Shown: positions 11,679 through 51,085 of the stretch, piece by piece
Position numbering within the stretch: position 1 is the stretch's first letter
Layout of the letters: the number at the start of each line of letters is the position of its first letter
Virus record (IMG/VR): IMGVR_UViG_3300028833_000087
Span: 57,434 to 121,433 of that record
Origin: a virus
Lineage: Duplodnaviria; Caudoviricetes
DNA length: 64,000 nucleotides
Direction: 5' to 3' (one strand)
The notes under the pieces: generated by a model
The model's database searches: none
The model's input: only the letters and a program-made list of their open reading frames with translations
What the model was told of the DNA's origin: nothing
Made by a program: the position numbers and the translations under genes

Positions 11679-11945
11679 CTAAGATACCTCCTCTTTTTAT
11701 TAAGAATGTAAAGCTGTATATTTATAGTTATATATTATAAATATGGAACATATAGTGATTCACCAAAATACTACGCTTACCTCGTAGTCATAACGGGTAC
11801 GATGCACCCGAAGCATCCCCACAGCAAACCTAAGCTAATGGTAAAAATTCTGGCACAGGTATTGGATTCGGCCTGGTTAAATAATAGAATTGTAGGGATA
11901 GGTAAGATCCCACTTCCTAATTATATTAGGAGAAAGGAGGTCGTT

Positions 11946-12965
11946 ATGATAACCTCTACAAATTTTGGTACCGAAAACTTTGCAAAGTCCGCATCAGAAG
12001 TATTGCGGAGCGCTAAATCTGTTGTGTTGTATGTCCACGACGGATTGTTTCATGCTGATGATGTACTGTGTGCTGTTCTGTTCGAGGCACATTATAAAAA
12101 TATCGACAGAAAGGTTATTCGCCGTCGAATGACAATTGATGATATCGAGGAGTTAAAATCACTCGACGATGGCATCACCCGTATTGTCTGTGATACAGGG
12201 TGTCAGGATTTAGTCACAGACAACTTGTTAGTGCTTGATCATCATTCGGATAACAAGTTAACTTACATGAATGGTGTACAGTATGCAGCTGTAGGAAAGT
12301 TTGCTAGCTGCTTACGCTGGGCATTTCCTGATTCCAAGATTGCATCATCAGGCCTGTATAATTTTCAGAAGACAGTGCTCTGGCCAGTTGAAGTTCAGGA
12401 CAATGGTCAGAAAGCTGAGGATCTGAACATCCAACTGTATCCTAATTTATTTAGCTGGATTAGTGTTTTCAACTGCTCATGGAATGAAGATTGGACCGAG
12501 TCTAGTGACAGATTCTTTGAAGCAGTTGAGCTGGCGACTAAAATCCTTGATCGCCAGTTTACAAGATTGGAAGGTCTGGTCGAAGCTTGGGAAATAGTAG
12601 AGAATGAAATTGAATCTCTGAATCCTTCCGAGATACTTGTTCTTGGCAAGTATGTTCCTTGGCAGGAGCCGGTAATTGGATATAATCAGCTACATTGTAA
12701 CCAGATTAAGCTGATTATATTTAAGTCCACCGGAGATCAGTGGAACTGCCAGTGCGTCCCTGTAGCACTTGGTAGTTTTGATACGATAATTAAAGCACCG
12801 GAAGAATGGGGAGGTAAGACAGGAGTTGAGCTTGAAGTCCTGTCTGGTATAGAAGGAGCAGTATTCTGTCACCGTGGACTTTGGCTCACTGTATGGAAAA
12901 CAAAAGACGCTGCTCTTAAAGCTGCAGAATTAATTCTGGATAAAAATTCTACAGAAAGCGAATGA
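11946..12965 (+). CDS. MYG1 (UPF0160) family DHH-like exonuclease; start moved to 11946
   Basis: HDGLFHADD, DHH, GAVFCHRGLW motifs; AAGGAGG SD before 11946. Confidence 0.85.
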   Translation: MITSTNFGTENFAKSASEVLRSAKSVVLYVHDGLFHADDVLCAVLFEAHYKNIDRKVIRRRMTIDDIEELKSLDDGITRIVCDTGCQDLVTDNLLVLDHHSDNKLTYMNGVQYAAVGKFASCLRWAFPDSKIASSGLYNFQKTVLWPVEVQDNGQKAEDLNIQLYPNLFSWISVFNCSWNEDWTESSDRFFEAVELATKILDRQFTRLEGLVEAWEIVENEIESLNPSEILVLGKYVPWQEPVIGYNQLHCNQIKLIIFKSTGDQWNCQCVPVALGSFDTIIKAPEEWGGKTGVELEVLSGIEGAVFCHRGLWLTVWKTKDAALKAAELILDKNSTESE

Positions 12966-28097: not shown

Positions 28098-28650
28098 ATT
28101 TGTACTTGAAGCTGAAATTAAGGAAGAATTTGATGAAGATGTGAAAAATATTATAGCAGATGCTATAGAAAAATTGGTTCCTTATGCAGAAAATGGAGTA
28201 AAATCGAAATATGTTTCCAAAAATAAAATCTCCAAAAATATTACTAACAAGTCTATTTGTGATTTAATTAGAATACAAATTGAAAATAGGAAGAATGAAA
28301 TTCTGGATAATGGTTTTGGATGGATAATAGCTATTCAAAAGACTTCAGATAAAAAGATATACTTCGGAGAACCTGTTAGATCGAAGCCGACTTATGTTGA
28401 TGATTTTAAGAAAGCTGTTATCTTTTGGAGTAAAGAAGAAGCTATGCTAGCGTTCGAAAGTTCAACAGGGTTTAATTTAAAAAAGATAATTTATTCACAA
28501 GCATATCCTTTAGTACAGCTGTGTACTGTACCTGTAACAAAATCGGAAGAAAAATCTAGAGATGATTTTATTGTTCTTGTACCGATCGAGGGAGAAGTTG
28601 TTGTGAGTGAATATATTATACTAAATTACAATGGAGAGGAGTTTGAATAA
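28078..28650 (+). CDS. Hypothetical protein (same motif family)
   Basis: YVDDFKKAVIFWSKEEA. Confidence 0.7.
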   Translation: MIMKKFKFVLEAEIKEEFDEDVKNIIADAIEKLVPYAENGVKSKYVSKNKISKNITNKSICDLIRIQIENRKNEILDNGFGWIIAIQKTSDKKIYFGEPVRSKPTYVDDFKKAVIFWSKEEAMLAFESSTGFNLKKIIYSQAYPLVQLCTVPVTKSEEKSRDDFIVLVPIEGEVVVSEYIILNYNGEEFE

Positions 28651-28651
28651 T

Positions 28652-29554
28652 ATGGACAAGATTTTTAAAGAGATGAGTTTATGTAACAAGTACTATGATG
28701 GTGATTTTTATACAATTGCCATTAATAAGTACAATAAGAAGAATGAAAGGCGTGTAGAGTTTTATAAGAAAGCAAAGTCTGAGAAGTCCAAGATATGGGT
28801 AAAGGATGTATTAGATAGCACAAGATTCAAGGATTATGCTTCTGCTATAACTCATCTTGAGAAGACTTATGACTGTGAAATCGAGTATATATCTAGTGAT
28901 AGAGGTGATTGTGATTATATGATCTGTCATGTGGTACTCGAAAAGGGATTGCCAGTAGGATTTTCTTATCTCAACTTCAAAGCTAAAAGTTCAGAAAAAT
29001 ATAAGAATTATCCTCAGTATATTCATGATTCTAATGATGATAATGCTAACATTCATGTTCCGTTAGGACCTGCTTTACAACTTCATATACCTGAAGATGA
29101 GATAAACGATTTAAAAACCCTTATCAATGAATGCTATAAAGAAAAAGCCAAAGGTGGAAAACCTCCTGTGGTAGTTGATAGTATTCCTATGCCTGATTTG
29201 GTAAAAGATAATTCTTCAAATAACAAAGAAATACCTCATAAGTATTATGTAGAGTATTATGTATTAGTATTTCATAATGATGAAGGTAAAGATTGTTATT
29301 TTCAGGGGTTTAATGAATATGGTTGTGAGTCATACGATTCTTTTAAATATGCAAAGAAATTTAATGATTTCGACTCAGCATTATCAATGACGATAGCTTT
29401 AGAAGATCCTGTTCCTATTGAATCCTGTGAAAACAATGATCCATGTAAGTTATTCTCTATAACTAAAATAAGAGAATACAGTAATGGTAATTGGTTTGTA
29501 ATTGACAGTAAATCTTATAAAGATTTAGATGAAGAAGATGCAGATGAGGAGTGA
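28652..29554 (+). CDS. Hypothetical protein with two copies of the motif
   Basis: WVKDVLDSTRFKDYASA and YDSFKYAKKFNDFDSA. Confidence 0.75.
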   Translation: MDKIFKEMSLCNKYYDGDFYTIAINKYNKKNERRVEFYKKAKSEKSKIWVKDVLDSTRFKDYASAITHLEKTYDCEIEYISSDRGDCDYMICHVVLEKGLPVGFSYLNFKAKSSEKYKNYPQYIHDSNDDNANIHVPLGPALQLHIPEDEINDLKTLINECYKEKAKGGKPPVVVDSIPMPDLVKDNSSNNKEIPHKYYVEYYVLVFHNDEGKDCYFQGFNEYGCESYDSFKYAKKFNDFDSALSMTIALEDPVPIESCENNDPCKLFSITKIREYSNGNWFVIDSKSYKDLDEEDADEE

Positions 29555-33399: not shown

Positions 33400-34497
33400 A
33401 TGAAAGTTCTGCTTATAGGTATTGGTGCTGCTGGTAATAAAGCTGTAGTTCAAGCTGTAGAAGATAAGGTTATTGCTGAAGAAGATTCTATTATTATTAA
33501 TTCTACTGATAAAGATTTCCCAAAAGAATTTAATGGAAAGAAAATGATTTTATCTCCTAATAATCAGGGATGTGGTAAAGAAAGAGCAACTGCCTATGCT
33601 TTTACTAAAGCTCTAATTGAAAATGATACTCTTAATATTGATTGTTCTAAATATAATACAGTAATTGTTTGTGCATCTGTTGAAGGTGGTACAGGATCTG
33701 GTTCAGCTCCTTTGATTGCTAAATACTTTAAGCATGTCCATAATAGAAATGTACATGTGATTGCTTTTATTGGATTTGAAGATGATCCTAGAGGATTATC
33801 AAATACTGTAGAATTCTTTAAAGAATTAGAATCTGATCTTATTGTACAGACTATTAGAAATTCTTCTTTTATGAAACAAGCTGGTGGTAATAAGTTTAAA
33901 GCTGAAGAATTAGCTAATAAAGAAATGAGCAAGAGAATTAAGATTATTACTGGTCAGCAGTTTCTAAATTCTGAACAGAATATTGATGATACTGATATTC
34001 TTAAAGTATCAAATACTGCAGGATATATGACTGTAGAAGAAAAGTATTTAGATAAGAATTTAGAAACTGTAGAAGATTTTAATAAAGTGGTTAAGAATAT
34101 GATTTATAATTCTCACTCTATTAAATCTAATTCTCCTAAGGCTATTCGTATTGGTGTTATTCTTAATATTGAACCTGGTTCAGAAGATGCTATTGATTAT
34201 ACATTTACTGATATCACTGAAGCATATGGTAATCCTTATGAAAAATATCTTCAGAAACAATGGGATGGTAATAAAGAATATATTCAGTGGATTGTATCTG
34301 GTATGCAGATGCCGTTAGATGAGATTAAAGAGATTTATGATAGATATCTTGCTGAATCTGATAAGGTACAGAAAGACGCTGATACTTTCTTTAAAACAAT
34401 GGAAACAATGCAGATGGATAGTAGTAATTCTAGATTCGATATGATTAAACCTGAAGAAAAGAAAATGAGCAAAGATGCATTTTTAAAGAATCTATAA
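33400..34497 (+). CDS. Tubulin/FtsZ family GTPase (PhuZ/TubZ-like)
   Basis: GIGAAGNK, GCGKE, GGTGSG signature, IDDTD T7-like loop. Confidence 0.9.
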   Translation: MKVLLIGIGAAGNKAVVQAVEDKVIAEEDSIIINSTDKDFPKEFNGKKMILSPNNQGCGKERATAYAFTKALIENDTLNIDCSKYNTVIVCASVEGGTGSGSAPLIAKYFKHVHNRNVHVIAFIGFEDDPRGLSNTVEFFKELESDLIVQTIRNSSFMKQAGGNKFKAEELANKEMSKRIKIITGQQFLNSEQNIDDTDILKVSNTAGYMTVEEKYLDKNLETVEDFNKVVKNMIYNSHSIKSNSPKAIRIGVILNIEPGSEDAIDYTFTDITEAYGNPYEKYLQKQWDGNKEYIQWIVSGMQMPLDEIKEIYDRYLAESDKVQKDADTFFKTMETMQMDSSNSRFDMIKPEEKKMSKDAFLKNL

Positions 34498-34542: not shown

Positions 34543-34555
34543 TAATATATTATAA
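34543..34555 (+). promoter_or_regulatory. Putative early promoter driving array 1
   Basis: TAATATATTATAA, one mismatch to window-wide motif. Confidence 0.6.
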
Positions 34556-34579
34556 ATATGAAAGGAGGTTAATAATTTT

Positions 34580-35093
34580 AGTAATTGTGTAGTTGCGTAC
34601 TACGATGTGCGGTTAGGCTAAGTATATGCTTTGTATTGTGCGGTAGAGCGATGTGGTGTATATGTATAGTAGTGTATTATTTTAGTTCAGTAGAGTAAAG
34701 TAAATGTGAAGTGAAGTGCTGAAACTTGTAGTGTGGCATATGTAAGGTTTGACAATGTATTGTCGAGTAAATGTATAGTGAAGTATGGTAACGCCTAGTC
34801 AAGTACAGTAGTGTAAATGCATAGTCGAGTCCTGTGTCGTAAATGTATTGCCAGGTAGTATGGTGTACTAGTATAGTCACTTACTGCTCAGTATAGTCAA
34901 GTAAATGTATTGTGACGTAGCATAACGTTATGTTCAGCGGTGTAAATGTATAGCGACGTAAAGTTTAGTTCTGTAAATGTATGGTAATACACATTGTGCC
35001 AATACGTGGTAATGTATTTGTAAAGTAAGGTATATTTAAATTACGTGAAGTAAATGTAAAGTAAGGTTGGGTAAAGTATTATTAAGTAAATAT
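34580..35093 (+). repeat. Pentamer-register array 1 (about 14 units: AWATGY + 4-8 x NNNGY); putative guide RNA array
   Basis: Hexamers at 34583, 34624, 34660, 34702, 34738, 34769, 34815, 34841, (34867), 34903, 34944, 34975, 35016, 35052, 35088; spacings 5n+1 except one 42. Confidence 0.85.
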
Positions 35094-35106
35094 TTAAAGA
35101 AAGGAG

Positions 35107-35412
35107 ATGGTGTTTATGCATGATATGAGAAGAAAGAAAGATCGAATTTGGCGTGAAGCCAAAGGAATCTGCTCTCATTGTGGTCATAAGATCTATAGTA
35201 TGAGAAATAAAACTTTAGATCATTTTATTCCAAAATCATGCTTCGGATCTTATGATGAGAGAAATTTATTTGCGCTATGTAAAAGATGTAATGAAGAAAG
35301 GGGGAATGCTCTTGTAGGACTTGATTACTATGTATATGCGTCTGAAAACAAAAAGATGCAAGCATATCAATACGGACTTGAATACAATACCAGAACATCT
35401 TCTATGCAGTAA
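35107..35412 (+). CDS. Small HNH endonuclease embedded between arrays 1 and 2
   Basis: CSHCG...TLDHFIPKS..G....NL..LCKRCN; AAGGAG SD. Confidence 0.9.
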   Translation: MVFMHDMRRKKDRIWREAKGICSHCGHKIYSMRNKTLDHFIPKSCFGSYDERNLFALCKRCNEERGNALVGLDYYVYASENKKMQAYQYGLEYNTRTSSMQ

Positions 35413-35745
35413 ATGTATAGTGTAGTGAAGTGGAGCCCAGTAAATGCAAGTTAAAGTCTAGTATCATATGGTATAGTACAGTAAAGTATATGTAAAGTAC
35501 GGTGTAGTAAAATACAGTAAATGTTTTGTAGGGTATTGTGCCATTTTGTGAAGTGATTGTATGGTGAAGTAGAGTACAGTAAATGTAAGGTGTAATGGAG
35601 TATGGTCTGGTAAAGTAGATGTGAGGTAACGCACAGTTTTGTGCTGTTGGATGATGTATATGTAAGGTGAGGCGTAGCAGTGCTGAGTCGTGTGGTGTAA
35701 TGGCGAAGTGGTGCAGAGTCATGCTTTGTGATGTAAAGTAATTGT
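35406..35745 (+). repeat. Pentamer-register array 2 (about 9 units)
   Basis: Hexamers at 35411, 35442, 35488, 35519, 35555, 35581, 35617, 35658, 35699, 35740; spacings 31,46,31,36,26,36,41,41,41. Confidence 0.9.
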
Positions 35746-35750
35746 TCGAT

Positions 35751-35790
35751 TATACAAGCATACTTACAATTTAGTAAGTATGCTTGTATA
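35751..35790 (+). terminator. 17-bp hairpin closing array 2
   Basis: TATACAAGCATACTTAC-aattta-GTAAGTATGCTTGTATA. Confidence 0.7.
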
Positions 35791-35811
35791 TATCCGAAAG
35801 GAGAATATTTA

Positions 35812-36705
35812 ATGAGTTTATTTGATAATTTTTTAAATCAAATAAAAGAAAGTCCTAAATCTGAAAAAGTTCATATTCCTCTATATAATACTATAGAGTA
35901 TAAAATATCTACTTTAGTAGATATGATAAATAATGTAGATTCTATATCTGATGAAGAATTAAAGAATGTAATCATAAGACAGCATAAAATGATATTAAAT
36001 TATGATCCATTCTTATCTAATCAAGATACTAGAAGATCTGCATTAAAGTTATTTACAAATAAAAGGTTCCTTAATTTATTTCTTGAAGTTATTGGATTCT
36101 TGGATTTATCAAGAGAACAAGTTATTTGTATAAATAAACTTGCTTATGATTATTATGTATCTAATAATAAAGAAAAAGAAATATCAGAACTATTATTATC
36201 TATTTGCTATCTTATCAATAATCAATTGATTATTCGACTTTCTGCAAAGATGGATATTACAAATGCGAGAGTTTTATCAATGATAGCTAACTCTACATTT
36301 AAAATAGAAAAGAAAGTTCATAGAGTAAATGTATTCTTTTTAAAGAAAGATACAAATAAAGAATTTACTGTACAAGATTATATAGATATTTATATAATAC
36401 TATTTGATCATTTTAGAGAATTATTTACATATTCAATGTTTGAAGCTTGGACAACTCCTATCACAGATGAGTGTGCTCAATTACAATATGATAGATTCTT
36501 AAGAATGTCAGCAGCTTTAATAATTATGCTTGATAGTTTAACAAGTAAAGATATAGCGACAGTATTAAGAGAATATGGCTACACTTTGTCTATGATACCG
36601 AATAGTCCTATTAGATTTTCTATAAAGAATATGAAAAAGTATGATAGAATCAAAGATATAGCACATAGTCTTGAAGTAAATGAAAATGATATTTTAATTC
36701 CCTAA
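35812..36705 (+). CDS. Hypothetical alpha-helical protein
   Basis: 297 aa, AAGGAG SD, terminator at about 36700-36722. Confidence 0.8.
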   Translation: MSLFDNFLNQIKESPKSEKVHIPLYNTIEYKISTLVDMINNVDSISDEELKNVIIRQHKMILNYDPFLSNQDTRRSALKLFTNKRFLNLFLEVIGFLDLSREQVICINKLAYDYYVSNNKEKEISELLLSICYLINNQLIIRLSAKMDITNARVLSMIANSTFKIEKKVHRVNVFFLKKDTNKEFTVQDYIDIYIILFDHFRELFTYSMFEAWTTPITDECAQLQYDRFLRMSAALIIMLDSLTSKDIATVLREYGYTLSMIPNSPIRFSIKNMKKYDRIKDIAHSLEVNENDILIP

Positions 36706-36803
36706 GGAGAAATCCTTAGGGATGTTTTTATTTTTTCACAATCATATAATGATATATCTAATATCACTTAACTAAATATAATTTAAGATTGGAGGATAGA
36801 TAA

Positions 36804-37694
36804 ATGAAAATTAAAGCTTTTAAAGGATTTAATCCTGATATGACTTGTAAAAAGTTTAAATTTGTTCCTGGCGTGGAATATAGTATGGATGAAGATAAAA
36901 TTAATTTGTGTACAAGAGGATTTCATTCTTGTATTATTCCTCTGCAATGTTTCAGCTATTACAAACCATTAGCAGGTGTATTTCATGAAGTAGAAATAGA
37001 TGGTGCTATGGAAATAGCAAAAGCTAATTCCAAGATAGTATCATCTAAAATTACTGTAGAAGAACATGAATTAGATTCTAAAGAAATAGTTAATGAAACT
37101 TATGATTGTATTGAGATGCTTACAGGTGATACAGATTATCACGATACAATATTAGAAGATCTTTCAGAAAAATTAAAAAATTCTAAAATTAAAGGATCTA
37201 TTAATGTTTCTAATGCTTATCGTTCTATAGCAGCATCTAATATAGATGATGATTTAGGAAATGGTTCTGTTATTAATACTGGCGGTAAATCTATTGCAGC
37301 ATCTGTTGGTAATGATAAATGCGTTGCTACATCTGATACTAATTCTATAGCTGCATCTGTTGGTAAAACAAATAATGTGATATCTGCTGGATCTAAATCT
37401 ATCGCTGCATCTATAGGAGATTATAATTTGGTAACTGCAGGTAATCAGGGTGTAATTGCAGTATCTGTTGGTGAGCAATGTAAAGTTATAGCTGAAAAAG
37501 CAGGTTCTATGGCTATTATTACTACAGATTCTATTGGAAAAGGAGCTTTAAATTCTTATCTTGTATTTGTAAATACAGTTAAGAATGCTGATGAAACTAC
37601 TATAGATAAAGTTATTACTATATTTATTGATGGTTCAAAATATCGTCCAAATACTTGGTATAAATTAGATAATGGTGTTGTAAAAGAAGCATAA
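36804..37694 (+). CDS. Hypothetical phage protein (DUF7666-like N-terminus, S-I-A-A-S-V-G repeats)
   Basis: KAFKGF..DMTC..F, GFHSC..PL.CF.YY; low-complexity repeats; WYKL C-terminus. Confidence 0.75.
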   Translation: MKIKAFKGFNPDMTCKKFKFVPGVEYSMDEDKINLCTRGFHSCIIPLQCFSYYKPLAGVFHEVEIDGAMEIAKANSKIVSSKITVEEHELDSKEIVNETYDCIEMLTGDTDYHDTILEDLSEKLKNSKIKGSINVSNAYRSIAASNIDDDLGNGSVINTGGKSIAASVGNDKCVATSDTNSIAASVGKTNNVISAGSKSIAASIGDYNLVTAGNQGVIAVSVGEQCKVIAEKAGSMAIITTDSIGKGALNSYLVFVNTVKNADETTIDKVITIFIDGSKYRPNTWYKLDNGVVKEA

Positions 37695-37821
37695 TATATA
37701 AGCCCTAGAGGAGAAATCCTCTAGGGTAAATTTTTTCATAATTATATATAATATATGTGTAAAATAGTTTTGATTGTATCCCTTATACAATCATTAAAAA
37801 TCATTTAAGGAGGAAACAAAA

Positions 37822-38586
37822 ATGGTTGAAGAACAGGTAATGAAGGTGCGTTTAACGTTCCTGCAGGATGTGCTGGGAACACAGCCCACAGACTCAAAGA
37901 TCTATGAGTCCTTTCTGGCTACCAAGATGAGAAAAGAAATGGAGAAATCTGGGTACAAGGAAGAGAAGATCGATGAGAAGATCAATAAGGGTATGGAAGC
38001 ACTTCCGAACAACGAAGATGGGGAATTCTATCGTGATGGCGTTACGGTATTTCCTCGTCTGAAGATCAAGGAAACCGGAGAAGAGATCCCGGCTATTGAA
38101 GGATACTTACTCAAAGGATTCTTCAAGAATGCATGCTGGGCATGTGCAAAAGCAGATGGATTGTCCGCAGAACTGTCAGCTTACAAAAAGTACATTGACA
38201 ATATGACTGATGTAAATGAGATCAGTCCTATCATTGTCAACGACGATGTAAAGAAATACATGGAGGAGCATAAAGGAACTCTTCCTTTATTTCAGCGTCC
38301 GATCAGAATTTCCGACAGAAATGGTGAGCGTGTAGCGCTTGCTTGCTCAGAGTATGTACCGGCTGGTAGCTATATCGATTTTGAAATCACAGCTATGTCT
38401 GAAGAGGCATTGAATTTCGTTATCGAATGGCTCAACTACGGCAAGCATAATGGACTTTGCTGCTGGAGAAATTCTGGTAAAGGAAAGTTTGACTGGATCG
38501 ATCTTGATCTTGGTGCTAAGAGGGAGATTAATCCCAAAGCAATCAAGAAAAAAGGTAAGAAAAAGAAAGCTGACGATGAGGAATAA
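37822..38586 (+). CDS. Stand-alone Cas7/Csm3-like RAMP protein (putative guide-binding effector)
   Basis: N-terminal strand MKVRLTFLQDVLG; PAIEGYLLKGFFKNA (cf. PxIPGSSLKG); EYVPAGSYIDFEI (cf. ExVPxGxxFxF); C-terminal Gly loop GLCCWRNSGKGKF. Confidence 0.75.
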   Translation: MVEEQVMKVRLTFLQDVLGTQPTDSKIYESFLATKMRKEMEKSGYKEEKIDEKINKGMEALPNNEDGEFYRDGVTVFPRLKIKETGEEIPAIEGYLLKGFFKNACWACAKADGLSAELSAYKKYIDNMTDVNEISPIIVNDDVKKYMEEHKGTLPLFQRPIRISDRNGERVALACSEYVPAGSYIDFEITAMSEEALNFVIEWLNYGKHNGLCCWRNSGKGKFDWIDLDLGAKREINPKAIKKKGKKKKADDEE

Positions 38587-38619
38587 AATGTAGCAACAGT
38601 AAAGTATAGTTTTGCTACG

Positions 38620-38654
38620 AATGCTGGGTGGAGAAATCTACCCAGCATTTTTTC
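38620..38654 (+). terminator. Intrinsic terminator between RAMP gene and array 3
   Basis: AATGCTGGGT-N10-ACCCAGCATT followed by U-tract. Confidence 0.75.
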
Positions 38655-38663
38655 TAAATCCTT

Positions 38664-39040
38664 GTATATGTAAGGCAGAGTGTGGTATCATCGTGTGTGG
38701 TAAATGCAAGGTGCTGCCAGGTAGAGTACATTATGTGTATAGTGCCGTCGAGTTATGTATATGTGTAGTATAGCATATTCCGGTCATGTATAGTATATAT
38801 GAGGTAACGTATATGTAAGGTGCAATCAGGTGAAGTGGTATTTCGTACAGTATATGTATTGTGAAGTGAAATACGGTCGGGTTTGGTTTAGTATATGCAA
38901 GGTGGGGTTAAGTATAGCTCCGTCGCGTATGGTAACGTATATGTGAGGTTTAGCGTAGCGCCGTGAGATATCGTATATGTGAGGCGGGGTATAGTGCAGT
39001 CTAGTAATGGTAAAGCTATGTGTAATTTGGTGATGTGCAT
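38664..39040 (+). repeat. Pentamer-register array 3 (about 11 units)
   Basis: Hexamers at 38666, 38702, 38733, 38759, 38795, 38811, 38852, 38893, 38939, 38975, 39006; spacings 36,31,26,36,16,41,41,46,36,31. Confidence 0.9.
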
Positions 39041-39058
39041 CATATTGCTAAGCACATT

Positions 39059-39097
39059 AATATGGTAGAGGGTTGTAATAACCCTCTACCATATTTT
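39059..39097. terminator. Long hairpin closing array 3 and the nrd operon
   Basis: AATATGGTAGAGGGTT-gtaat-AACCCTCTACCATATT. Confidence 0.75.
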
Positions 39098-39230: not shown

Positions 39231-39836
39231 TCATTCTCCACACCCCTTACATTTAATTGTGTTTATAGGATCATCTTCATAATCGCCACAGTGTAATATT
39301 ACATGATCATTACTATACATAAGAACATTAGTATCATCAACATAAAATTCATATGTTCCGAATGTCTTTTTAGTATCTATCACTCTTTGATTAGAACTGC
39401 CCTTCCATAATAATTTAGGGTCCTTTAATGATTCTACAAATTCCCCATCCACTAATACATCTATACTGGTAAATAATCCTTCAGCTAATTGAGGATCTCT
39501 GTTCATCAGTTGTTCAAATGTAAATCCTGTATAAATCCATATAGTCTTATTAGGATATCTTTCTTTTACATCTTCAACAAAATCACATACTTCTTCAAAA
39601 TTATAAGCAGATAAAGGATCACCACCAGATATAGTAAGACCAGAAATATAATCTTTATCTAATTCATCATATATTTCCTGCTTAGCTTTTTCATCAAAGA
39701 TAATACCATCGTCAGGATCCCAGGTTATAGGATTATGACAACCTTTACAATGATGAGGACAACCAGATACCCAAAGAACCACCCTTAATCCATCACCATT
39801 TTTCATATCATCTTTGGTAATATCATGATACTTCAT
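39231..39836 (-). CDS. nrdG: Anaerobic RNR activating radical SAM enzyme (start moved to 39836)
   Basis: NGDGLRVVLWVSGCPHHCKGCHN, SGGDPL, LVDG.F, GSSNQR. Confidence 0.95.
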   Translation of the reverse strand: MKYHDITKDDMKNGDGLRVVLWVSGCPHHCKGCHNPITWDPDDGIIFDEKAKQEIYDELDKDYISGLTISGGDPLSAYNFEEVCDFVEDVKERYPNKTIWIYTGFTFEQLMNRDPQLAEGLFTSIDVLVDGEFVESLKDPKLLWKGSSNQRVIDTKKTFGTYEFYVDDTNVLMYSNDHVILHCGDYEDDPINTIKCKGCGE

Positions 39837-39865
39837 TATAATACCTCCTAATATGATAGTATAGA

Positions 39866-42319
39866 TCACATTGATATGCGATCCAAAACCTCTTTCATTT
39901 TAGCATCACTCATACGAGATTCACCATGGACTCTACTATATGCTAAATATCCATTCATTCTGTCAATTCTAGTAATATTTCTAGAACCACAATGAGGACA
40001 AACTTCAGGCATAGCAAGTTCTTCATATCCACAGTCATCACAATAAGCAAGGCTAAGATTTACACCTTCATAGAATCCCATTTCCATTGCTCTTCTTATA
40101 AGAGTTCTTATAGCTTCTTTATTATAGCTTAAAGGATATTTTACATACTGGATTTTTCCACCATTATGAGTATCCCAAAATCTATATTCAAGATCTTGTT
40201 TCTGAATAGGAGTAATATCTTCTGTAACATGACAATGGAAAGAGTTAGAGAAATATTCTCTATCGGATACATTCTTAATTATACCATATTTAGCTCTAAA
40301 TTGTCTAGATTGCAACGGAAGTAAATTTTCTCCAGGTGTGCCATATATAGCATACAATCTACCATCCTCTTTCTTAAATTGTTTAATCTTATCATTGATA
40401 TAATTCATAACTTCTAAAGCAAAAGCTCCATCTTCTACTAAAGATTTCTTATTATATAACTGCTGAAGTTCATTTAATGCTGTAATACCAAATGATGCAG
40501 TAAAAGTATCAATAACAGGTTTAATTTTATCATGAAAATCAAGATGACCGCCATAAAATCCACCAAAGCAATACATAAGAGGATTAGTAGAAGCTTTCAT
40601 TTCACCTAAATAATCATAGGTACGTAAATGAATATTTCTAATCATCTCAAGATAATAATCAAGTACATCATAAAAATCTTTACCTTCTTGTCTAGCTTTA
40701 GCTAATATCATCACTAAATTCAAAGAGACTACTCCACAGTTACCTCTTCCGCAGAATATAGGAGTATCATTCTCATCAGCAGGTTCTAATCCACCTCTTT
40801 CCCACCAAGGAGATAAAAATGCTCTGCACATGTTATTTACACTGACTATCTGTTCCCTCAGAACTCGCCAGGTTCTTCATCGGGCGATGCGCTCTGAACT
40901 GGTGCTTATCTCCAGTCCTCTTGTGGTACACTCATCCCACCTTAGTCGATACACCTTCCTATTACTAGGCTTGGCACGCACTCTCCATAGATCATAGCTT
41001 TTGACTCCCTATGGTCAATCCGTTAGCAAGATTATAAATCTCACACCCTATAAGCTAGGTTCACATCGTTATTATAATGGGCTACATTTACACTTACCCA
41101 TAGGCGATATCACTTTACCATACTTCTTATACATACTAGGCACATATCCTTCTCCAGTTAAAGATAACCAATCAGGATACATGGTCTTAGAAGAACATTC
41201 AATACCAGCTTCAAATACATCTTCTAATTCCTTACCAGGACCATGAAGATTTTCATCATATAAGAAAACAACTTTAGGGAATAATACAGGTTTCTTATGT
41301 CCTTCTTTACCCTGACCATTCATTCTAACTCTAAGCATTACTTTATTACACATTTTACCAAACTTAGTTGTAGATAAACCGCTGGTAACTGTAATAAAAG
41401 GATAATCACCTCTGGAAGATCCTACAGTATTAAACTTATATTCCCAACCCTGGAATCCTTGTTCAAATTCTCTCTGAACTTTTTCTTTGGCAAATTCATT
41501 AGCTTTCTCATCATCAGCACCAAGTCTCTTAGCATCTTCAAAATATTTATCATAAGATTTCTTAGCATAAGGTTCTAATAATTTATCTACTTCAGATATA
41601 GTAAATCCACCATATTGCTGAGATGCTGCTGAAAGAGTAACATCGCCAATTACATCAAATGCTACATCAAGAGAATTAGGTTCATTATACCATACATTAC
41701 CCATTTCAAATCCATCTTTTAATACGGCTCCTATATCAGGTAATGAGCAGTTCATAGTATCTCTACGAGCAGACATATCATGTATATAAATATATCCGTC
41801 TCTACAAGCTTGAAGCTCTTCTGTAGTCATAAAGAATTTCTGATATAATTCTTTATTTATCTGATTAAATATAAGACTTCTTTTTGTAGATACAAGAGCT
41901 GAATCCGAATTGGCATTCTCCTTATCTCCTACATACATAATAGATTGAGCTTTCTTATAGATATCATCCATCATATAAACAAAGTCATGTTTATAATTTC
42001 TATAATCTCTATATGATTTTGCTACAGCAGGCTTAATCTCATCAAGAGTTTTTTCTACAATATTATGCATATCTGATACTGAGATGAGATCTTTATCTAA
42101 ATCGTCAACTTTATTTACTACAGACTGACAAAGATATCTCTGTTCCTCTACAGTAAATTTAGTCAATGCTCTATATGCAGATTTACCAACAGCAATGATT
42201 ACTTTATTTACATTAAAAGGAGCATGAGTACCATCTTTCTTAATAATCATTACATCTCTTTTAGGTTTAAATTCTACACTAAAATCTTCATCAGTTTTTT
42301 CCATTTTTTCAATAGTCAT
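39866..42319 (-). CDS. nrdD: Class III ribonucleotide reductase; exons 42319-41096 and 40828-39866 (about 728 aa)
   Basis: ATP cone, YIHD, SPMG|CRAFL restored by splicing, C-terminal CxxC pairs and RMNGYL glycyl-radical motif. Confidence 0.95.
40829..41095 (-). mobile_element. Group I intron in nrdD (no ORF)
   Basis: P1 ATGGGT/GCCCAT with U.G at splice site; TATCGACTA and GATAGTCAG core; terminal G; frame restored. Confidence 0.9.
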
Positions 42320-47627: not shown

Positions 47628-49268
47628 ATGAAAGAAAAACAAAAATTCACATCAGGACAAATAGAGGAAATAATAAACGGTGTTTACTCAAAAGTAGACA
47701 TCTATCAGTATGCGGACTTTTTCTTAACTAAAAATCAAATGAAACAAATTCGTTTAGGATTAGAATCTGGTATAGATACTTCTATATATAATAAGAGGTA
47801 TTATAATTCTGATCAAATGGAACAATTAAGACTTGGTTTAGAAGAAGGACTAGATGTATCTATTTATGCTGATAGATTTTTTAATGAATATAAAATGGCA
47901 GAAATAAGAAAATGTCTAAAAAATGGTATTGATCCTGATATCTTTATAAACCAACATCATAATTTTGATAAATATCAGATAAAGTTATTAAGAAAAGGAT
48001 TAGAAAAAGGATTAGATATATCTGCATATGCAGATCCGGATTACACCATACAAGAAATGGAACAAATTATGGATGGACTTATGCATGGTATTGATATATC
48101 TGTTTATATTAGAGGATTTAATTTTGAGCAGATGAAAGAAATAAGGAAAGGTATGCAAGATGGATTGGATATATCAATTTATGCTAAAAAAGAATATAAT
48201 GATTTGCAGATGCTTATGTTACGCAAAGGATTAGAATACGGAATCGATACACAATATTATTCTGATCCAAATTTTAATTATATGCAGATGGGAGAAATAC
48301 GATATGGATTACAAGCTGGCATCGATATTTTTCAATATAATAAAATTGAATATCCTTGGTGGGTAATGAGAGAGACGAGAGAAAGGCTAATTTTAGAGAA
48401 AAGATTCAATAATCTTAAAAATTTTAAATTTAGCAATTTTCTTGAAGTTCAAAAAAAGAAAATATTTTATGGTTTGAATAAATTAAGAGATATATCGTTT
48501 TTTGCAGATCCAAGACTTACTGTAGAACAGATGCAAGAGATTATTATCGGTATTGAAGAAGGAGTAAATGTATCTTTTTTCTGTAGTCATAATATCTCCG
48601 CTTCAAAAATGAAAAGTATGAGAATTACTTTATTTAAAAATAAAGCGGAATATCCGATAATTGATCAGTACGGTAATAGATATTACGATAGCAATCTTAA
48701 ATATAAAATTGAAATCGAAAGGCAAATGGAACAAATATGTCTTGGAATATCAAAACAACTTGATGTATCTATTTATGCAGATCCAAAATTTACTGCAGAG
48801 CAGATGAGAGAAATCCGAGAGGGTTTGGAAGAAGGATTAAATGTATCTTTATATAACAATCAAAAATTTAATGCAGATCAGATGAGAGAAATCCGAGAGG
48901 GTTTGAAACAACATCTTGATGTATCAATATATGTAAATCCAAAATTTACTGCAGAGCAGATGAGAGAAATCCGAGAGGGTTTGGAAGAAGGATTAAATGT
49001 ATCTATTTATGTAGATCAAAAATTTAATGCAGATCAGATGAGAGAAATCCGAGAGGGTTTGAAACAACATCTTGATGTATCAATATATGTAAATCCAAAA
49101 TTTACTGCAGAGCAGATGAGAGAAATACGAATAGGTTTGGAGCAACGTCTTGATGTATCAATATATAATAGTCTAAAATATAATGCTGAAGAGATGTATA
49201 ATATAAGGACAGAAATGCATTATAAAGATTTATTTAGACGTTATAATAATGGCGGTAAAAGAAATTAG
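47628..49268 (+). CDS. 26-aa tandem repeat protein
   Basis: IYADPKFTAEQMREIREGLEEGLDVS-type repeats throughout. Confidence 0.85.
   Translation: MKEKQKFTSGQIEEIINGVYSKVDIYQYADFFLTKNQMKQIRLGLESGIDTSIYNKRYYNSDQMEQLRLGLEEGLDVSIYADRFFNEYKMAEIRKCLKNGIDPDIFINQHHNFDKYQIKLLRKGLEKGLDISAYADPDYTIQEMEQIMDGLMHGIDISVYIRGFNFEQMKEIRKGMQDGLDISIYAKKEYNDLQMLMLRKGLEYGIDTQYYSDPNFNYMQMGEIRYGLQAGIDIFQYNKIEYPWWVMRETRERLILEKRFNNLKNFKFSNFLEVQKKKIFYGLNKLRDISFFADPRLTVEQMQEIIIGIEEGVNVSFFCSHNISASKMKSMRITLFKNKAEYPIIDQYGNRYYDSNLKYKIEIERQMEQICLGISKQLDVSIYADPKFTAEQMREIREGLEEGLNVSLYNNQKFNADQMREIREGLKQHLDVSIYVNPKFTAEQMREIREGLEEGLNVSIYVDQKFNADQMREIREGLKQHLDVSIYVNPKFTAEQMREIRIGLEQRLDVSIYNSLKYNAEEMYNIRTEMHYKDLFRRYNNGGKRN
48781..49170 (+). 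repeat. Near-perfect 156-bp tandem duplication
   Basis: ATCCAAAATTTACTGCAGAGCAGATGAGAGAAAT at 48781, 48937, 49093. Confidence 0.85.
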
Positions 49269-49321: not shown

Positions 49322-51085
49322 TTATACAGTCGGCTTAAGACCCTTCGGATTCAAAATCTGGATACGACCCTGAACTTCGAACTGGCTATACATCTTGAAG
49401 CGATCGAAGCTGTGGATTGCAGGCAGGTTCTGATTCTGTGCGTTACGGATCTCGTTGCTGATGTACAGCTGATAATCATACAGTCTGTACATAATACGCT
49501 CAGAACCAACCGGATTCAGGATAACCATCATCTCATTGGTATCACGCATCTTATCAGTACCAACGTAGTTGTATACACGATGATCCTTGGTATCAACAAC
49601 AGTCAGAGTGTAATCCAACTGAACTGCACCCAAGTTACTCGGAGCCTGATATGTCCACTCAGACGGAGTCAGACGACGAATAATACGAGGATCGCCGTAT
49701 ACAGTAACAGTTACGTTCGGATCATTCCATACCTGGAACATACGAGTTACATAATCATCGAAGAAATCGCTGAATACAGCGTTACGATGAGTAACGTAGT
49801 CCAGTGCATAGCCTTCCGGTACAGCGAAATCGAACTCATCATAGAAGGAACGTCTCTCATCCAGACGAGCATAGCTGTCGTTCAGGTAGTTGTAGATCTT
49901 CTTGTCCTTGTATTCAGACAGAGCAGTCTTAGTCATGGACATGATCTTGGTAACCTGGCTAGCATCATACAGAGCAGCGATATCCTTAACTTCTTCCGGG
50001 GATACTGTGGTGTTGATAGCTGTTGCTTCCGGAATCTCTACATAATCAGTATCGAGTTTCCACTTAACGGAGCACTCATCATACATAGCATTAGTAGTAT
50101 TCAACTTAGCTGCCAGCATAACCTTCTTTACATTACCCTTAACTGCAGTCAGAGTAATCTTGTTGTTGTGCATTGCACCAAACAGAGTATCTTCCAGAGT
50201 AGCCAGAGTACCAGCTGCATCTGTCTTATACTGAATGATTACCGGCTTGGAGAATGCTCTCTCAAGACGATTACGATCACCGTAGGTCGGTGTAAACTGG
50301 ATATCTACATGATACCATACGTCTCTTACACCAGCTTCATCAGCAGTTGCAATCTTACCCTTGTTAGAGAACCATCCGTCATCATCCGGCAGACGATCGC
50401 CTTCAGCGAAGTATACACCCTGAACAAAGATACCATTAATATGAGTAGAAGTAGACAGTTCATCCATTGCAGTACCACCAAGAGCACCAACAATATCAGT
50501 TGTCTCATCTTCTGGAACATTGATCTCCATATTTACTGTCGGAGCGGAAGCTTCGATAGTATCAAAGATCTTGTTCTGCTCATAGAACATATCGATTTCC
50601 TTGCCATCAGAAGAAACAAGGATACGACGCTCTACAGATACTGTAAAGCTCGGCTTTGCAGCAGTAACACGCTGGATACCACCACCCTGAGAGAATACGT
50701 TGTTCATAAGGATATACTTATGAATAGGAATAGCCATACCAACCATCGGAGAGTACTCGGACTGATAAGTATTTTCCTGGATTCCCTTAACGTCGTTCTC
50801 GAATAACTGATTATAATCTTCAGTTGCTTCCTCTACATAATTTGCGTCAACATCAGGACGATTGGTGTCAACCAAATCAGCGGTAAAGAACTCACGCAGA
50901 GCCTCAGTTACACCCTGACTACGCAGAGCACGAGTCGGCTCCTGATAGAAATCAAAAGATTCACGATTTAAAATGTTGCTTGCAGCTTCGGTAAAAGCTT
51001 TTGCAAATTGATACATCGGGTCACGTCTGTAAGCAGATGCACCAATGGTACTACGAGCTTGGGAATTATCGCCACCTACTACCAT
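49322..51085 (-). CDS. Probable major capsid protein
   Basis: 587 aa, strongest high-expression codon bias in window, own terminator, in structural cluster; no diagnostic motif recognised. Confidence 0.6.
   Translation of the reverse strand: MVVGGDNSQARSTIGASAYRRDPMYQFAKAFTEAASNILNRESFDFYQEPTRALRSQGVTEALREFFTADLVDTNRPDVDANYVEEATEDYNQLFENDVKGIQENTYQSEYSPMVGMAIPIHKYILMNNVFSQGGGIQRVTAAKPSFTVSVERRILVSSDGKEIDMFYEQNKIFDTIEASAPTVNMEINVPEDETTDIVGALGGTAMDELSTSTHINGIFVQGVYFAEGDRLPDDDGWFSNKGKIATADEAGVRDVWYHVDIQFTPTYGDRNRLERAFSKPVIIQYKTDAAGTLATLEDTLFGAMHNNKITLTAVKGNVKKVMLAAKLNTTNAMYDECSVKWKLDTDYVEIPEATAINTTVSPEEVKDIAALYDASQVTKIMSMTKTALSEYKDKKIYNYLNDSYARLDERRSFYDEFDFAVPEGYALDYVTHRNAVFSDFFDDYVTRMFQVWNDPNVTVTVYGDPRIIRRLTPSEWTYQAPSNLGAVQLDYTLTVVDTKDHRVYNYVGTDKMRDTNEMMVILNPVGSERIMYRLYDYQLYISNEIRNAQNQNLPAIHSFDRFKMYSQFEVQGRIQILNPKGLKPTV

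What the first reader, a model, noticed from the sequence alone, without database searches (positions are those of the whole stretch)
34543..39097. Candidate phage RNA-guided system: lone Cas7-like RAMP protein plus three pentamer-register arrays and an HNH nuclease
Seen: three non-coding plus-strand arrays with the same grammar (about 34 units), an HNH gene between arrays 1 and 2, and a 254-aa protein directly upstream of array 3. Array 1 and that gene each have a copy of the phage promoter motif, and arrays 2 and 3 end in long hairpins. Established: the protein carries the RAMP/Cas7-Csm3 motif order (PxIxGxxLKG, ExVPxG, C-terminal Gly loop), and Cas7 polymerises along guide RNA with a fixed nucleotide periodicity. 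No cas1/2/3/5/6/8/10 and no repeat-spacer CRISPR is in the window. Inference: each array unit is a guide RNA on which protomers bind the fixed (N)GY of each pentamer while the variable bases read a target non-contiguously, plausibly against competing phages or host genes. From memory this resembles recently reported phage VIPR systems (GGY/NN RNAs), which I cannot verify here; the NGY core, hexamer punctuation and embedded HNH would make it at least a distinct variant.
Basis: partly seen in the sequence, partly recalled or inferred. Interest (0 to 1): 0.96.

Follow-up and report, generated by a model that had tools for sequence, protein, structure and literature searches.

The report
Jumbo-phage VIPR guide-RNA system
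This phage carries a VIPR system, a kind first described in 2026: a small Cas7-like protein plus three arrays of 5-base-periodic guide RNAs that probably silence rival genetic elements, so it is a new example of a known kind, not a new kind.

Summary
Three plus-strand non-coding arrays (34581-35091, 35409-35745, 38664-39040) consist of GYNNN pentamers, punctuated every 2-8 pentamers by a 6-base delimiter (GTAAAT or GTATAT). No other part of the window shows this periodicity.

ORF 37822-38586 matches no Pfam, PHROG, NCBIfam or PADLOC model. It folds confidently (pLDDT 88.7) as a single-RRM RAMP, closest to Csm3/Cas7 (Z 12.4, Foldseek E 4e-8).

Its family is large (2,239 clusters at 50% identity) and mostly viral. 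In 76 of 91 homologous loci the gene lies within 1.5 kb of same-strand arrays of this type.

This matches the VIPR systems described in 2026 bioRxiv preprints, which already list YNNNG repeats, staggered arrays and HNH accessory proteins.

Sequence similarity to the published SUSP1 Vipr is weak (hhalign E about 1e-4) but centres on the G-loop.

The HNH gene and the DUF7666 gene are absent from syntenic relatives. ORF 35812-36705 is a PhuZ-linked core phage gene. None of the three is a conserved accessory.

No targets were found, and the reading rule for three variable bases remains open.

Verdict: new member of a known kind, moderate interest. Earlier notes of this scan describe this same stretch read again, not other DNA.

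The parts
34545..34560 (+). Promoter-like motif ATATATTATAAATATG just upstream of array 1
   Evidence: An exact copy recurs at 11730, with 1-2 mismatch copies on the plus strand at 1512, 14467, 10721 and 24103. Function is not shown. The motif as a whole is not enriched over shuffles.
34581..35091 (+). vrRNA array 1: GYNNN pentamers with mostly GTAAAT delimiters, about 16 hexamer-bounded units
   Evidence: Lag-5 identity is 0.42. The parse gives 70 in-phase GY pentamers and 16 hexamers. There is no plus-strand ORF of 40 aa or more.
35107..35412 (+). Minimal HNH endonuclease gene (98-101 aa; the likely start is the ATG at 35116, 9 nt after AAAGGAG), sitting exactly between two GTAAAT delimiters
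   Evidence: PF01844 E 3e-8 and many HNH PHROGs. The stop TAA lies inside the delimiter at 35409. There is no paralogue in the 121-kb record. It is absent from the syntenic loci L089 and L091. Among the 80 viral loci only L061 gave a weak match.
35409..35745 (+). vrRNA array 2, continuing array 1 with the same GTAAAT delimiter, about 10 units
   Evidence: Lag-5 identity is 0.48, with 49 GY pentamers. As RNA it folds no better than shuffles (z -0.11).
35752..35789 (+). AT-rich hairpin closing arrays 1 and 2
   Evidence: Inverted repeat read directly from the sequence. The terminator scan did not call it, because the stem has too few G-C pairs.
35812..36705 (+). All-helical 297-aa protein: a PhuZ-linked core jumbo-phage gene, not part of the system
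   Evidence: It follows PhuZ in 9 of 12 jumbo-phage loci that hold neither a vipr gene nor arrays. In the contig of L002 its homologue lies about 100 kb from vipr. The model is helical, pLDDT 83.7.
36804..37694 (+). DUF7666 protein in a variable cargo slot; probably not part of the system
   Evidence: PF24703 E 4e-24 and phrog_4433. Related ORFs lie within 6 kb of vipr in 9 of 80 viral loci by tblastn, or 14 of 81 loci by ORF clustering with the window counted. The same slot holds unrelated 80-aa and 114-aa ORFs in L089 and L091.
37822..38586 (+). vipr: stand-alone single-RRM RAMP protein (254 aa) with thumb hairpin, G-loop GLCCWRNSGKGKF and a Lys-rich C-terminal tail
   Evidence: AF2 pLDDT 88.7. 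Foldseek gives Csm3 at E 4e-8. VIA gives Z 12.4 to 9g9a_D. The family has 2,239 clusters. hhalign against the SUSP1 Vipr clade gives E 1.2e-4 to 2.9e-4. GC3 is 0.46, against 0.09-0.16 in the phage genes orf297, DUF7666 and PhuZ, and 0.28 in the HNH gene.
38590..38654 (+). 3' UTR of vipr: a hairpin whose loop follows the array grammar, then an intrinsic terminator
   Evidence: MFE -31.2 kcal/mol, z -7.2. The loop-unit hairpin is not conserved across the clade.
38664..39040 (+). vrRNA array 3: GYNNN pentamers with mostly GTATAT delimiters, about 12 units
   Evidence: Lag-5 identity is 0.38, with 52 GY pentamers and 12 hexamers.
39059..39095 (+). Intrinsic terminator closing array 3
   Evidence: 17-pair stem followed by a T-rich tail.

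Best explanation
This is a VIPR (Viral Interference Programmable Repeat) system carried by an AT-rich jumbo phage that encodes a PhuZ tubulin.

Inferred mechanism:
- The three arrays are transcribed from the plus strand.
- Vipr protomers (37822-38586) bind one pentamer each, holding the fixed G and pyrimidine through the G-loop and thumb. This leaves the variable bases exposed.
- The 6-nt A/U-rich delimiter (GUAAAU or GUAUAU) breaks the 5-nt register. It therefore ends one filament and starts the next, and it is probably where the transcript is cut into guides of 16-46 nt (longer where a non-canonical hexamer intervenes).
- Each ribonucleoprotein then recognises double-stranded DNA of a competitor (a co-infecting phage, a prophage or a satellite) by gapped pairing and blocks its transcription. 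This is what was shown for type II VIPR.

Shown here: the array grammar, the RAMP fold, and the family-wide linkage of gene and arrays.

Inferred by analogy with the published SUSP1 system: transcription, processing at the delimiters, filament formation, DNA targeting and silencing.

The HNH gene is most likely a later insertion into what was a single array (arrays 1 and 2), not a core part of the system.
For: Array grammar.

RAMP fold with thumb and G-loop: pLDDT 88.7; all top Foldseek and VIA hits are Csm3, Cas7 or Cmr4; the nearest named Atlas structure cluster is Csm3.

No cas genes and no CRISPR array.

Linkage: 76 of 91 homologous loci have same-strand arrays within 1.5 kb. Array density is 11.6% near the gene against 1.25% farther away.

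Strand: arrays lie only on the vipr strand in AT-rich loci, as expected for an RNA.

Structure: array RNA has no structure beyond shuffles, as expected for a linear scaffold.

Relatives: jumbo-phage relatives also have hexamer-punctuated GYNNN arrays, up to about 4.6 kb in L002.

Similarity to the published protein: hhalign of the family against the SUSP1 Vipr clade aligns GxGQWRNSGKGRF with GVGDWRPR-FGRF (E 2.9e-4 over 180 columns; E 1.2e-4, probability 55%). The W and R that hold G2 and Y3 in the cryo-EM structure are conserved. The two residues that read G1 (D177 and H17) are replaced here, and G1 is also the base that is not conserved in these arrays (G at 22%).

Literature: the discovery paper lists YNNNG repeats, staggered arrays and a phage habitat.
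Against: There is no expression, binding or targeting data for this clade.

Sequence similarity to the characterised Vipr is marginal (probability 41-55%).

No target was found under any skip rule. This covers the phage's own 121 kb, 1.24 Mb of fetched related loci, and exact scans of IMG/VR and of 185,579 genomes.

Units are short (mostly 2-8 pentamers). Under the published NN-plus-one-skip rule that gives only 4-16 specified bases, which is little specificity.

In SUSP1 a GGY-to-AGY change abolished silencing. Recognition here must therefore differ at that position.

The VIPR type could not be assigned, because the paper's supplementary data are not held.
Confidence: 0.85

Rival explanations
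1. Same VIPR system, but the embedded HNH protein is a working accessory (Vap-like) nuclease. It would be recruited by the Vipr-vrRNA filament, so this system would cut its targets rather than only silence them, as proposed for VIPR types III-V.
For: The gene is intact, has a good Shine-Dalgarno sequence and would be co-transcribed with the arrays. It is a bare HNH domain of about 100 aa with no DNA-binding module, so it would need a partner to find a target. The discovery paper reports HNH-domain Vap proteins and nuclease-bearing types. Its GC3 (0.28) lies between that of the phage genes and that of vipr.
Against: It is absent from the syntenic relatives L089 and L091, whose arrays are uninterrupted. 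Among the other 120 vipr loci only one gave a weak 52-aa match. No close relative was found in IMG/VR. It replaces the body of one unit exactly between two delimiters, which looks like an insertion. The nuclease-bearing published types are cellular and sit in defence islands, not in phages.
Confidence: 0.2
2. The arrays are not this phage's own weapons. They would be decoy or hijacking vrRNAs that redirect or soak up Vipr proteins of competing phages, as shown for satellite-encoded and orphan vrRNAs of SUSP1-family elements.
For: The third VIPR preprint reports stand-alone vrRNAs used in this way. Arrays 1 and 2 use a different delimiter variant (GTAAAT) from array 3 (GTATAT). They are also separated from vipr by two unrelated genes.
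Against: An intact cognate vipr gene lies in the same locus, and all three arrays share one grammar. The same layout (array, core gene, vipr, array) is kept in L089 and L091. The two delimiter variants differ by a single base.
Confidence: 0.07
3. A remnant or minimal CRISPR-Cas class 1 module: a lone Csm3/Cas7 captured by a phage. The periodic DNA would be unrelated, for example protein-binding repeats.
For: The best structural matches are Csm3 and Cas7.
Against: There is no CRISPR repeat-spacer array, no Cas1 and no match to Pfam RAMPs or NCBIfam Cas models. The protein has a single RRM. Gene and pentamer arrays travel together across 76 of 91 loci of very different composition.
Confidence: 0.03

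Closest known systems
VIPR type II (Escherichia phage SUSP1, Pseudomonas fulva prophage), bioRxiv 10.64898/2026.04.26.720920 and 10.64898/2026.04.26.720927
   Same: Both are phage-encoded. Both have a small stand-alone single-RRM RAMP with thumb and G-loop. Both have non-coding arrays of 5-nt repeats with fixed G and pyrimidine and variable bases, on the same strand, before and after the gene. Neither has cas genes. The G-loop W-R pair that holds G2 and Y3 is conserved.
   Different: - Repeat: GYNNN (three variable bases) here, against GGY/NN. The first G is only 22% G here, whereas GGY-to-AGY inactivates SUSP1.
- Guides: mostly 2-8 repeats, bounded by a 6-nt delimiter and with no structured 3' tail. 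SUSP1 guides have 9-16 repeats plus a pseudoknotted tail.
- Number: about 37 units, against 4 vrRNAs.
- No conserved vap gene.
- The protein is 254 aa, with a helical insertion and a Lys-rich tail.
- Sequence similarity is only marginal.
Other published VIPR forms: YNNNG/NNNGG/NNNNG repeats and 'staggered' vrRNA arrays (fig. S17, S18 of the discovery preprint)
   Same: The pentamer here is exactly YNNNG when read one base later. Successive units are offset by one base from the 5-nt lattice, which is what a staggered array would look like.
   Different: The figures and data tables are not held. I therefore could not confirm that the published staggered arrays are the same 5n+1 grammar, or that this protein clade is among the seven types. 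The paper says the staggered form was not among those confirmed by sRNA-seq.
CRISPR-Cas type III backbone subunit Csm3/Cmr4 (Cas7)
   Same: Same fold and closest solved structures (Z 12.4, rmsd 3.4 over 166 residues to 9g9a_D). Both polymerise along a guide RNA with a fixed nucleotide period (established knowledge for Cas7; inferred here).
   Different: The period is 5 nt, not 6. There is no CRISPR array, Cas10, Cas6 or adaptation gene. There is no match to the Pfam RAMPs model. The published VIPR target is double-stranded DNA read discontinuously, not RNA.

Membership tests
VIPR system | Stand-alone RAMP protein with RRM core, thumb and glycine-rich loop, lacking a second RRM | tested here: met
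   AF2 model, pLDDT 88.7, with one beta-alpha-beta core, a long beta-hairpin at 156-179 and a flexible G-loop at 211-222. Csm3/Cas7 top hits: E 4e-8 and Z 12.4.
VIPR system | Sequence relationship to published Vipr proteins (PSI-BLAST family seeded on X1U2U4, which includes SUSP1 Vipr) | tested here: inconclusive
   hhalign of the family against the SUSP1 clade gives probability 41%, E 2.9e-4, 180 collinear columns. With larger profiles it gives probability 55%, E 1.2e-4, over the G-loop only. The published family list is not held.
VIPR system | Flanking non-coding arrays of tandem pentanucleotide repeats with conserved G/Y and hypervariable N (YNNGG, or the listed alternatives NNNGG, YNNNG, NNNNG) | tested here: met
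   171 in-phase pentamers: G 100%, Y 100% (T 84%), and three positions with 0.1-0.2 bits each. This is the YNNNG form.
VIPR system | Non-CRISPR context: no cas operon, no CRISPR repeat-spacer array | tested here: met
   No regular repeat-spacer family in the window. No Cas1 or Pfam RAMP match in the 121-kb record. Neighbouring genes are phage genes. Only about half the genome is held.
VIPR system | Gene-array linkage conserved among homologues; mainly viral or proviral | tested here: met
   76 of 91 loci have same-strand arrays within 1.5 kb. At least 559 IMG/VR contigs encode relatives. Many lie beside an integrase, a CI-like repressor and an antirepressor.
VIPR system | A vipr-accessory (vap) gene in the operon ('typically' two genes) | tested here: not met
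   No neighbour is conserved with vipr. orf297 is a PhuZ-linked core gene. The slot before vipr holds unrelated ORFs in the relatives. HNH is unique to this phage. The paper describes vap as typical, not universal.
VIPR system | vrRNAs are expressed and co-purify with Vipr | not testable with these tools
   Needs sRNA-seq or a pull-down.
VIPR system | DNA recognition by the variable bases with a one-nucleotide skip | tested here: inconclusive
   No enrichment over shuffled guides under skips 0-3 or contiguous NNN. Exact 1-nt-skip scans returned only chance-like hits, and their skip positions matched at the binomial rate.
CRISPR-Cas type III (Csm/Cmr) | CRISPR repeat-spacer array and partner subunits (Cas10, Csm2/4/5, Cas6) | tested here: not met
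   No such array. No further RAMP and no Cas1 in the record. The neighbours are unrelated phage genes. Cas10 itself was not searched for by a model.

The most novel reading that the evidence does not exclude
In this YNNNG clade the base at the position of the lost first G is not sequestered but read. Each pentamer would then specify a full contiguous triplet of target DNA: a 5-to-3 code with no skipped base. This would make short guides of 4-8 repeats specific enough (12-24 nt). The one-base register break at the A/U-rich delimiter would be the signal that both ends a filament and directs cleavage of a long transcript into dozens of guides, without a Cas6-like enzyme or a ribozyme. A further possibility is that the bare HNH domain is recruited to these filaments.
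Probability: 0.2. Interest if true: 0.7.

Novelty: new member of a known kind. Interest (0 to 1): 0.4.

Why it matters
VIPR was described only in 2026, and experiments so far cover types II, III and V. This locus and its relatives show that AT-rich, PhuZ-encoding jumbo phages carry the YNNNG form as very large arrays of short guides. The window holds about 37 units, and a related 243-kb phage holds about 4.6 kb of arrays.

The guides have three variable bases per repeat and a simple 6-nt delimiter. That makes two open questions directly testable: how a pentamer with three free bases is read, and how staggered arrays are matured.

The locus also suggests which contacts set the repeat consensus. 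The two published residues that read the first G are replaced here, and that base is the one no longer conserved in the RNA.

As a compact protein with short guides it could also interest tool builders. It does not change the picture of what kinds of RNA-guided systems exist.

Tried and rejected
1. Target searches. Guides were scanned, allowing mismatches, against the phage's own 121 kb and against 1.24 Mb of related loci. The rules tried were skips 0-3 and contiguous NNN. Observed scores equalled those of shuffled guides. A clade-wide test used 42 eight-pentamer guides against 2.5 Mb of strand sequence (about 1.26 Mb of loci read on both strands) and was also null. Exact 1-nt-skip scans for two 8-pentamer units found 6 and 23 IMG/VR stretches. 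The hits were scattered across taxa, and their skip positions matched at the chance rate.

2. Codon-likeness of the NNN triplets. TAG and TAA were the two most depleted triplets (99 stop triplets seen against 173 expected). The control then showed that the triplet biases correlate equally with every frame and both strands of ordinary phage DNA. This is general trinucleotide bias, and I dropped it as evidence.

3. G-loop residue against G1 conservation within the clade. Loci with the same GQW loop range from 9% to 79% G at that position, so that residue alone does not set the consensus.

4. orf297 as an accessory protein: rejected.

5. DUF7666 as an accessory protein: present near vipr in only 9 of 80 viral loci by tblastn, or 14 of 81 loci by ORF clustering with the window counted, at varying distance.

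6. Hammerhead or other known RNA families in the arrays: no match near any family's gathering score.

7. The 3' UTR hairpin with an array-like loop as a conserved element: not conserved across the clade.

8. Recent horizontal transfer of vipr, judged from its GC. The same excess is present in the diverged relatives L089-L091, so it is not a recent event in this phage alone.

A first metagenome scan found nothing. The second found only relatives of 45% identity or less.

10. There is no sequence match in the PDB. The fold library (entries released up to 8 April 2026) returned only CRISPR RAMP chains among its top hits. No direct structural comparison with a solved Vipr was made.

Full report
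**1. What is there**

The region 34.5-39.1 kb of the window lies in a 121-kb IMG/VR virus record. CheckV estimates that record to be about half complete. The identical protein also occurs on a 236-kb contig. The phage has 29% G+C. It encodes a PhuZ-type tubulin directly upstream (33400-34497). Anaerobic ribonucleotide reductase genes lie directly downstream on the other strand.

The gene order on the plus strand is:
- PhuZ and its terminator
- a promoter-like motif
- array 1
- the HNH gene
- array 2 and a hairpin
- a 297-aa gene and its terminator
- a DUF7666 gene and its terminator
- the 254-aa gene, followed by two hairpins
- array 3 and its terminator

**2. The arrays**

Base identity peaks at lags 5, 10 and 15 in all three arrays. 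No other part of the window or of the 121-kb record behaves this way, on either strand.

A register parse gives 171 in-phase pentamers of the form G-Y-N-N-N, with T at 84% of the Y position. The three N positions carry only 0.1-0.2 bits each, and 53 of the 64 possible triplets occur.

The 5-nt lattice is shifted by one base at 37 hexamers. Of these, 27 are the delimiter G-Y-A-W-A-T, each followed by a biased first pentamer (G-Y, then A or G, A or T, and no C). Spacings between canonical delimiters are 16, 26, 31, 36, 41 or 46 nt, that is 5n+1. The longer spacings (42, 57, 62, 77) contain a non-canonical hexamer.

Arrays 1 and 2 mostly use GTAAAT, and array 3 mostly uses GTATAT. The arrays are poor in C. 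As RNA, array 2 folds no better than shuffled sequence (z -0.11). That suits a linear scaffold. No Rfam family matches near its gathering score, so there are no hammerhead ribozymes.

**3. The protein**

The 254-aa product (P0001) matches no model in Pfam, PHROGs, NCBIfam or PADLOC, and no PDB sequence.

With a 52-sequence alignment, AlphaFold2 gives pLDDT 88.7 and pTM 0.83. The top Foldseek hits are all Csm3 or Cas7 subunits, at E down to 4e-8. The search that does not rely on Foldseek gives Z 12.4 to Csm3 (9g9a_D, rmsd 3.4 over 166 residues). The next hits are Csm3, Cmr4 and the Cas7 subunits of types IV, VII, III-D and III-E. The nearest named structure cluster in the ESM Atlas is also Csm3, and the closer clusters there are unnamed viral proteins.

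Y95, G99 and K102 are invariant, as are G211, W215, N217 and G221.

**4. The family and its neighbours**

A profile search finds 2,239 clusters at 50% identity. At least 559 IMG/VR contigs encode relatives.

I fetched 120 loci, and 91 of them contain the G-loop motif. In 76 of those 91, same-strand GY arrays lie within 1.5 kb of the gene. Arrays cover 11.6% of those flanks, against 1.25% of the more distant flanks.

In AT-rich loci the arrays lie only on the gene's strand. Most of these arrays are also GYNNN, with no conserved first G.

Large-phage relatives (L002, L017, L081, L078, L101) and the nearest relatives found (L089-L091) have the same hexamer-punctuated grammar. In L002 the arrays span about 4.6 kb with 148 hexamers.

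In the many temperate phages of about 40 kb, the gene sits beside an integrase, a CI-like repressor and an antirepressor.

**5. Comparison with the literature**

Three 2026 preprints describe VIPR systems. A Vipr protein, a single-RRM RAMP, forms one-protomer-per-repeat filaments on vrRNAs made of GGY/NN pentamers. The complex recognises double-stranded DNA through the NN bases, skipping one DNA base per repeat, and silences transcription of competing phages and satellites.

The discovery paper defines seven types. It lists the alternative repeats NNNGG, YNNNG and NNNNG, 'staggered arrays with overlapping vrRNAs', ribozyme-interspersed arrays, and accessory proteins that include HNH domains.

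I located the SUSP1 locus in KT454805, with the vipr gene at 28474-29061 on the minus strand, flanked by GGYNN arrays. I then compared profiles. The window's family against the SUSP1 clade gives E 2.9e-4 (probability 41%) over 180 collinear columns. Larger profiles give E 1.2e-4 (probability 55%) over the helix and G-loop. This is weak, as the authors say RAMPs generally are, but it falls on the signature element.

In that alignment, W178 and R179 of SUSP1, which hold G2 and Y3, correspond to W215 and R216 here. D177 and H17, which read G1, correspond to C214 (Q in most of the family) and T20. The base that is not conserved in these arrays is that same G1.

This is suggestive only. The N-terminal part of the alignment has low confidence. 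Within the clade, G at that position ranges from 9% to 79% with the same loop.

**6. What belongs to the system**

- The 297-aa gene does not belong. It is homologous to the gene downstream of PhuZ in L089 and L091. It also follows PhuZ in 9 of 12 other jumbo-phage loci that have no vipr and no arrays. In the contig of L002 its homologue lies about 100 kb from vipr. The arrays and vipr have therefore settled on either side of a PhuZ-linked core gene.
- The DUF7666 gene occupies a slot that holds unrelated small ORFs in L089 and L091.
- The HNH gene is absent from those syntenic relatives and has no paralogue in the record. Only one other locus gave a weak match. It sits exactly between two GTAAAT delimiters, and its stop codon lies inside the second one. 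Arrays 1 and 2 share a delimiter variant, so they look like one array split by an insertion.
- I rate a functional, recruited HNH at about 0.2. In its favour, the gene is intact, is a bare domain that would need a targeting partner, and has precedent in the published HNH accessory proteins.

**7. Mechanism, and what is not known**

The best explanation is a VIPR system working as published. Vipr filaments on the pentamers display the variable bases for gapped recognition of competitor DNA.

The new inference is about the delimiter. By breaking the 5-nt register it would bound each filament and leave an exposed A/U-rich linker, where cellular RNases could cut the transcript into short guides. 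Nothing here tests transcription, processing, binding or targeting.

The reading rule is open. With mostly 2-8 repeats, the published two-bases-per-repeat rule gives only 4-16 specified bases. Reading all three variable bases would give up to 24.

My target searches were all null. An apparent depletion of stop triplets proved to be ordinary trinucleotide bias.

**8. Verdict**

The class is already published, and the features thought distinctive appear in the paper's list of variants. I therefore file this as a new member of a known kind.

I could not assign a type, because the paper's supplementary data are not held.

Interest is moderate. This is a clean natural example of the uncharacterised YNNNG, staggered form, in jumbo phages with very large guide arrays, and it raises two testable mechanistic questions.

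The scan's earlier notes on this genome cover this same stretch read again, and they agree with what I found.

Noticed in passing
window 37822-38586; L089, L090, L091 vipr genes: The vipr gene is far richer in G+C than its phage. GC is 0.43 and GC3 0.46, against GC3 0.09-0.16 in neighbouring genes. The same excess (GC 0.42-0.45) is kept in three diverged AT-rich relatives, so it is not simply a recent transfer. The cause is unknown.
   Followed up: partly
C-terminal tails of P0001 and of the vipr products in L089, L090, L091: This jumbo-phage subclade has a basic C-terminal tail that most of the family lacks. In L089 it contains an AT-hook-like K-R-G-R-P-K-K. This suggests extra contact with AT-rich DNA.
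   Followed up: no
L002 6740-11350 (IMGVR_UViG_3300035520_000350, 243 kb): A related jumbo phage has about 4.6 kb of hexamer-punctuated GYNNN arrays downstream of its vipr gene: 755 five-base chunks (563 in-phase GY pentamers) and 148 hexamers. This is far more guide sequence than the window holds.
   Followed up: partly
window 33400-34497 and 35812-36705; L129-L140: A PhuZ tubulin gene followed by a conserved all-helical protein of about 295 aa with no known family is a recurrent pair in AT-rich jumbo phages. It was seen in 9 of 12 loci fetched through the 297-aa protein. The helical protein may be a PhuZ partner.
   Followed up: partly
window 38590-38618: A hairpin right after the vipr stop codon has a loop that follows the array grammar (CAGTAAAGTATAG), followed by a strong terminator. 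Together they give z -7.2. It might be a binding site for the protein on its own mRNA. It is not conserved across the clade.
   Followed up: partly
window 11802-12962 and 49325-51085: Two other ORFs have foreign composition (GC 0.42-0.44 in a 0.29 phage). One is a MYG1-like exonuclease (PF03690, E 7e-33), preceded by an exact copy of the promoter-like motif at 11730. The other is a 587-aa protein with no Pfam match on the minus strand.
   Followed up: no
window 48763-49152: Five tandem copies of a 78-nt repeat, 78-95% identical. They may encode a 26-residue protein repeat; the reading frame was not checked.
   Followed up: no
window 39231-40831, minus strand: An anaerobic ribonucleotide reductase (NrdD C-terminal part) and its radical-SAM activase lie next to the locus. 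This points to an anaerobic host.
   Followed up: no
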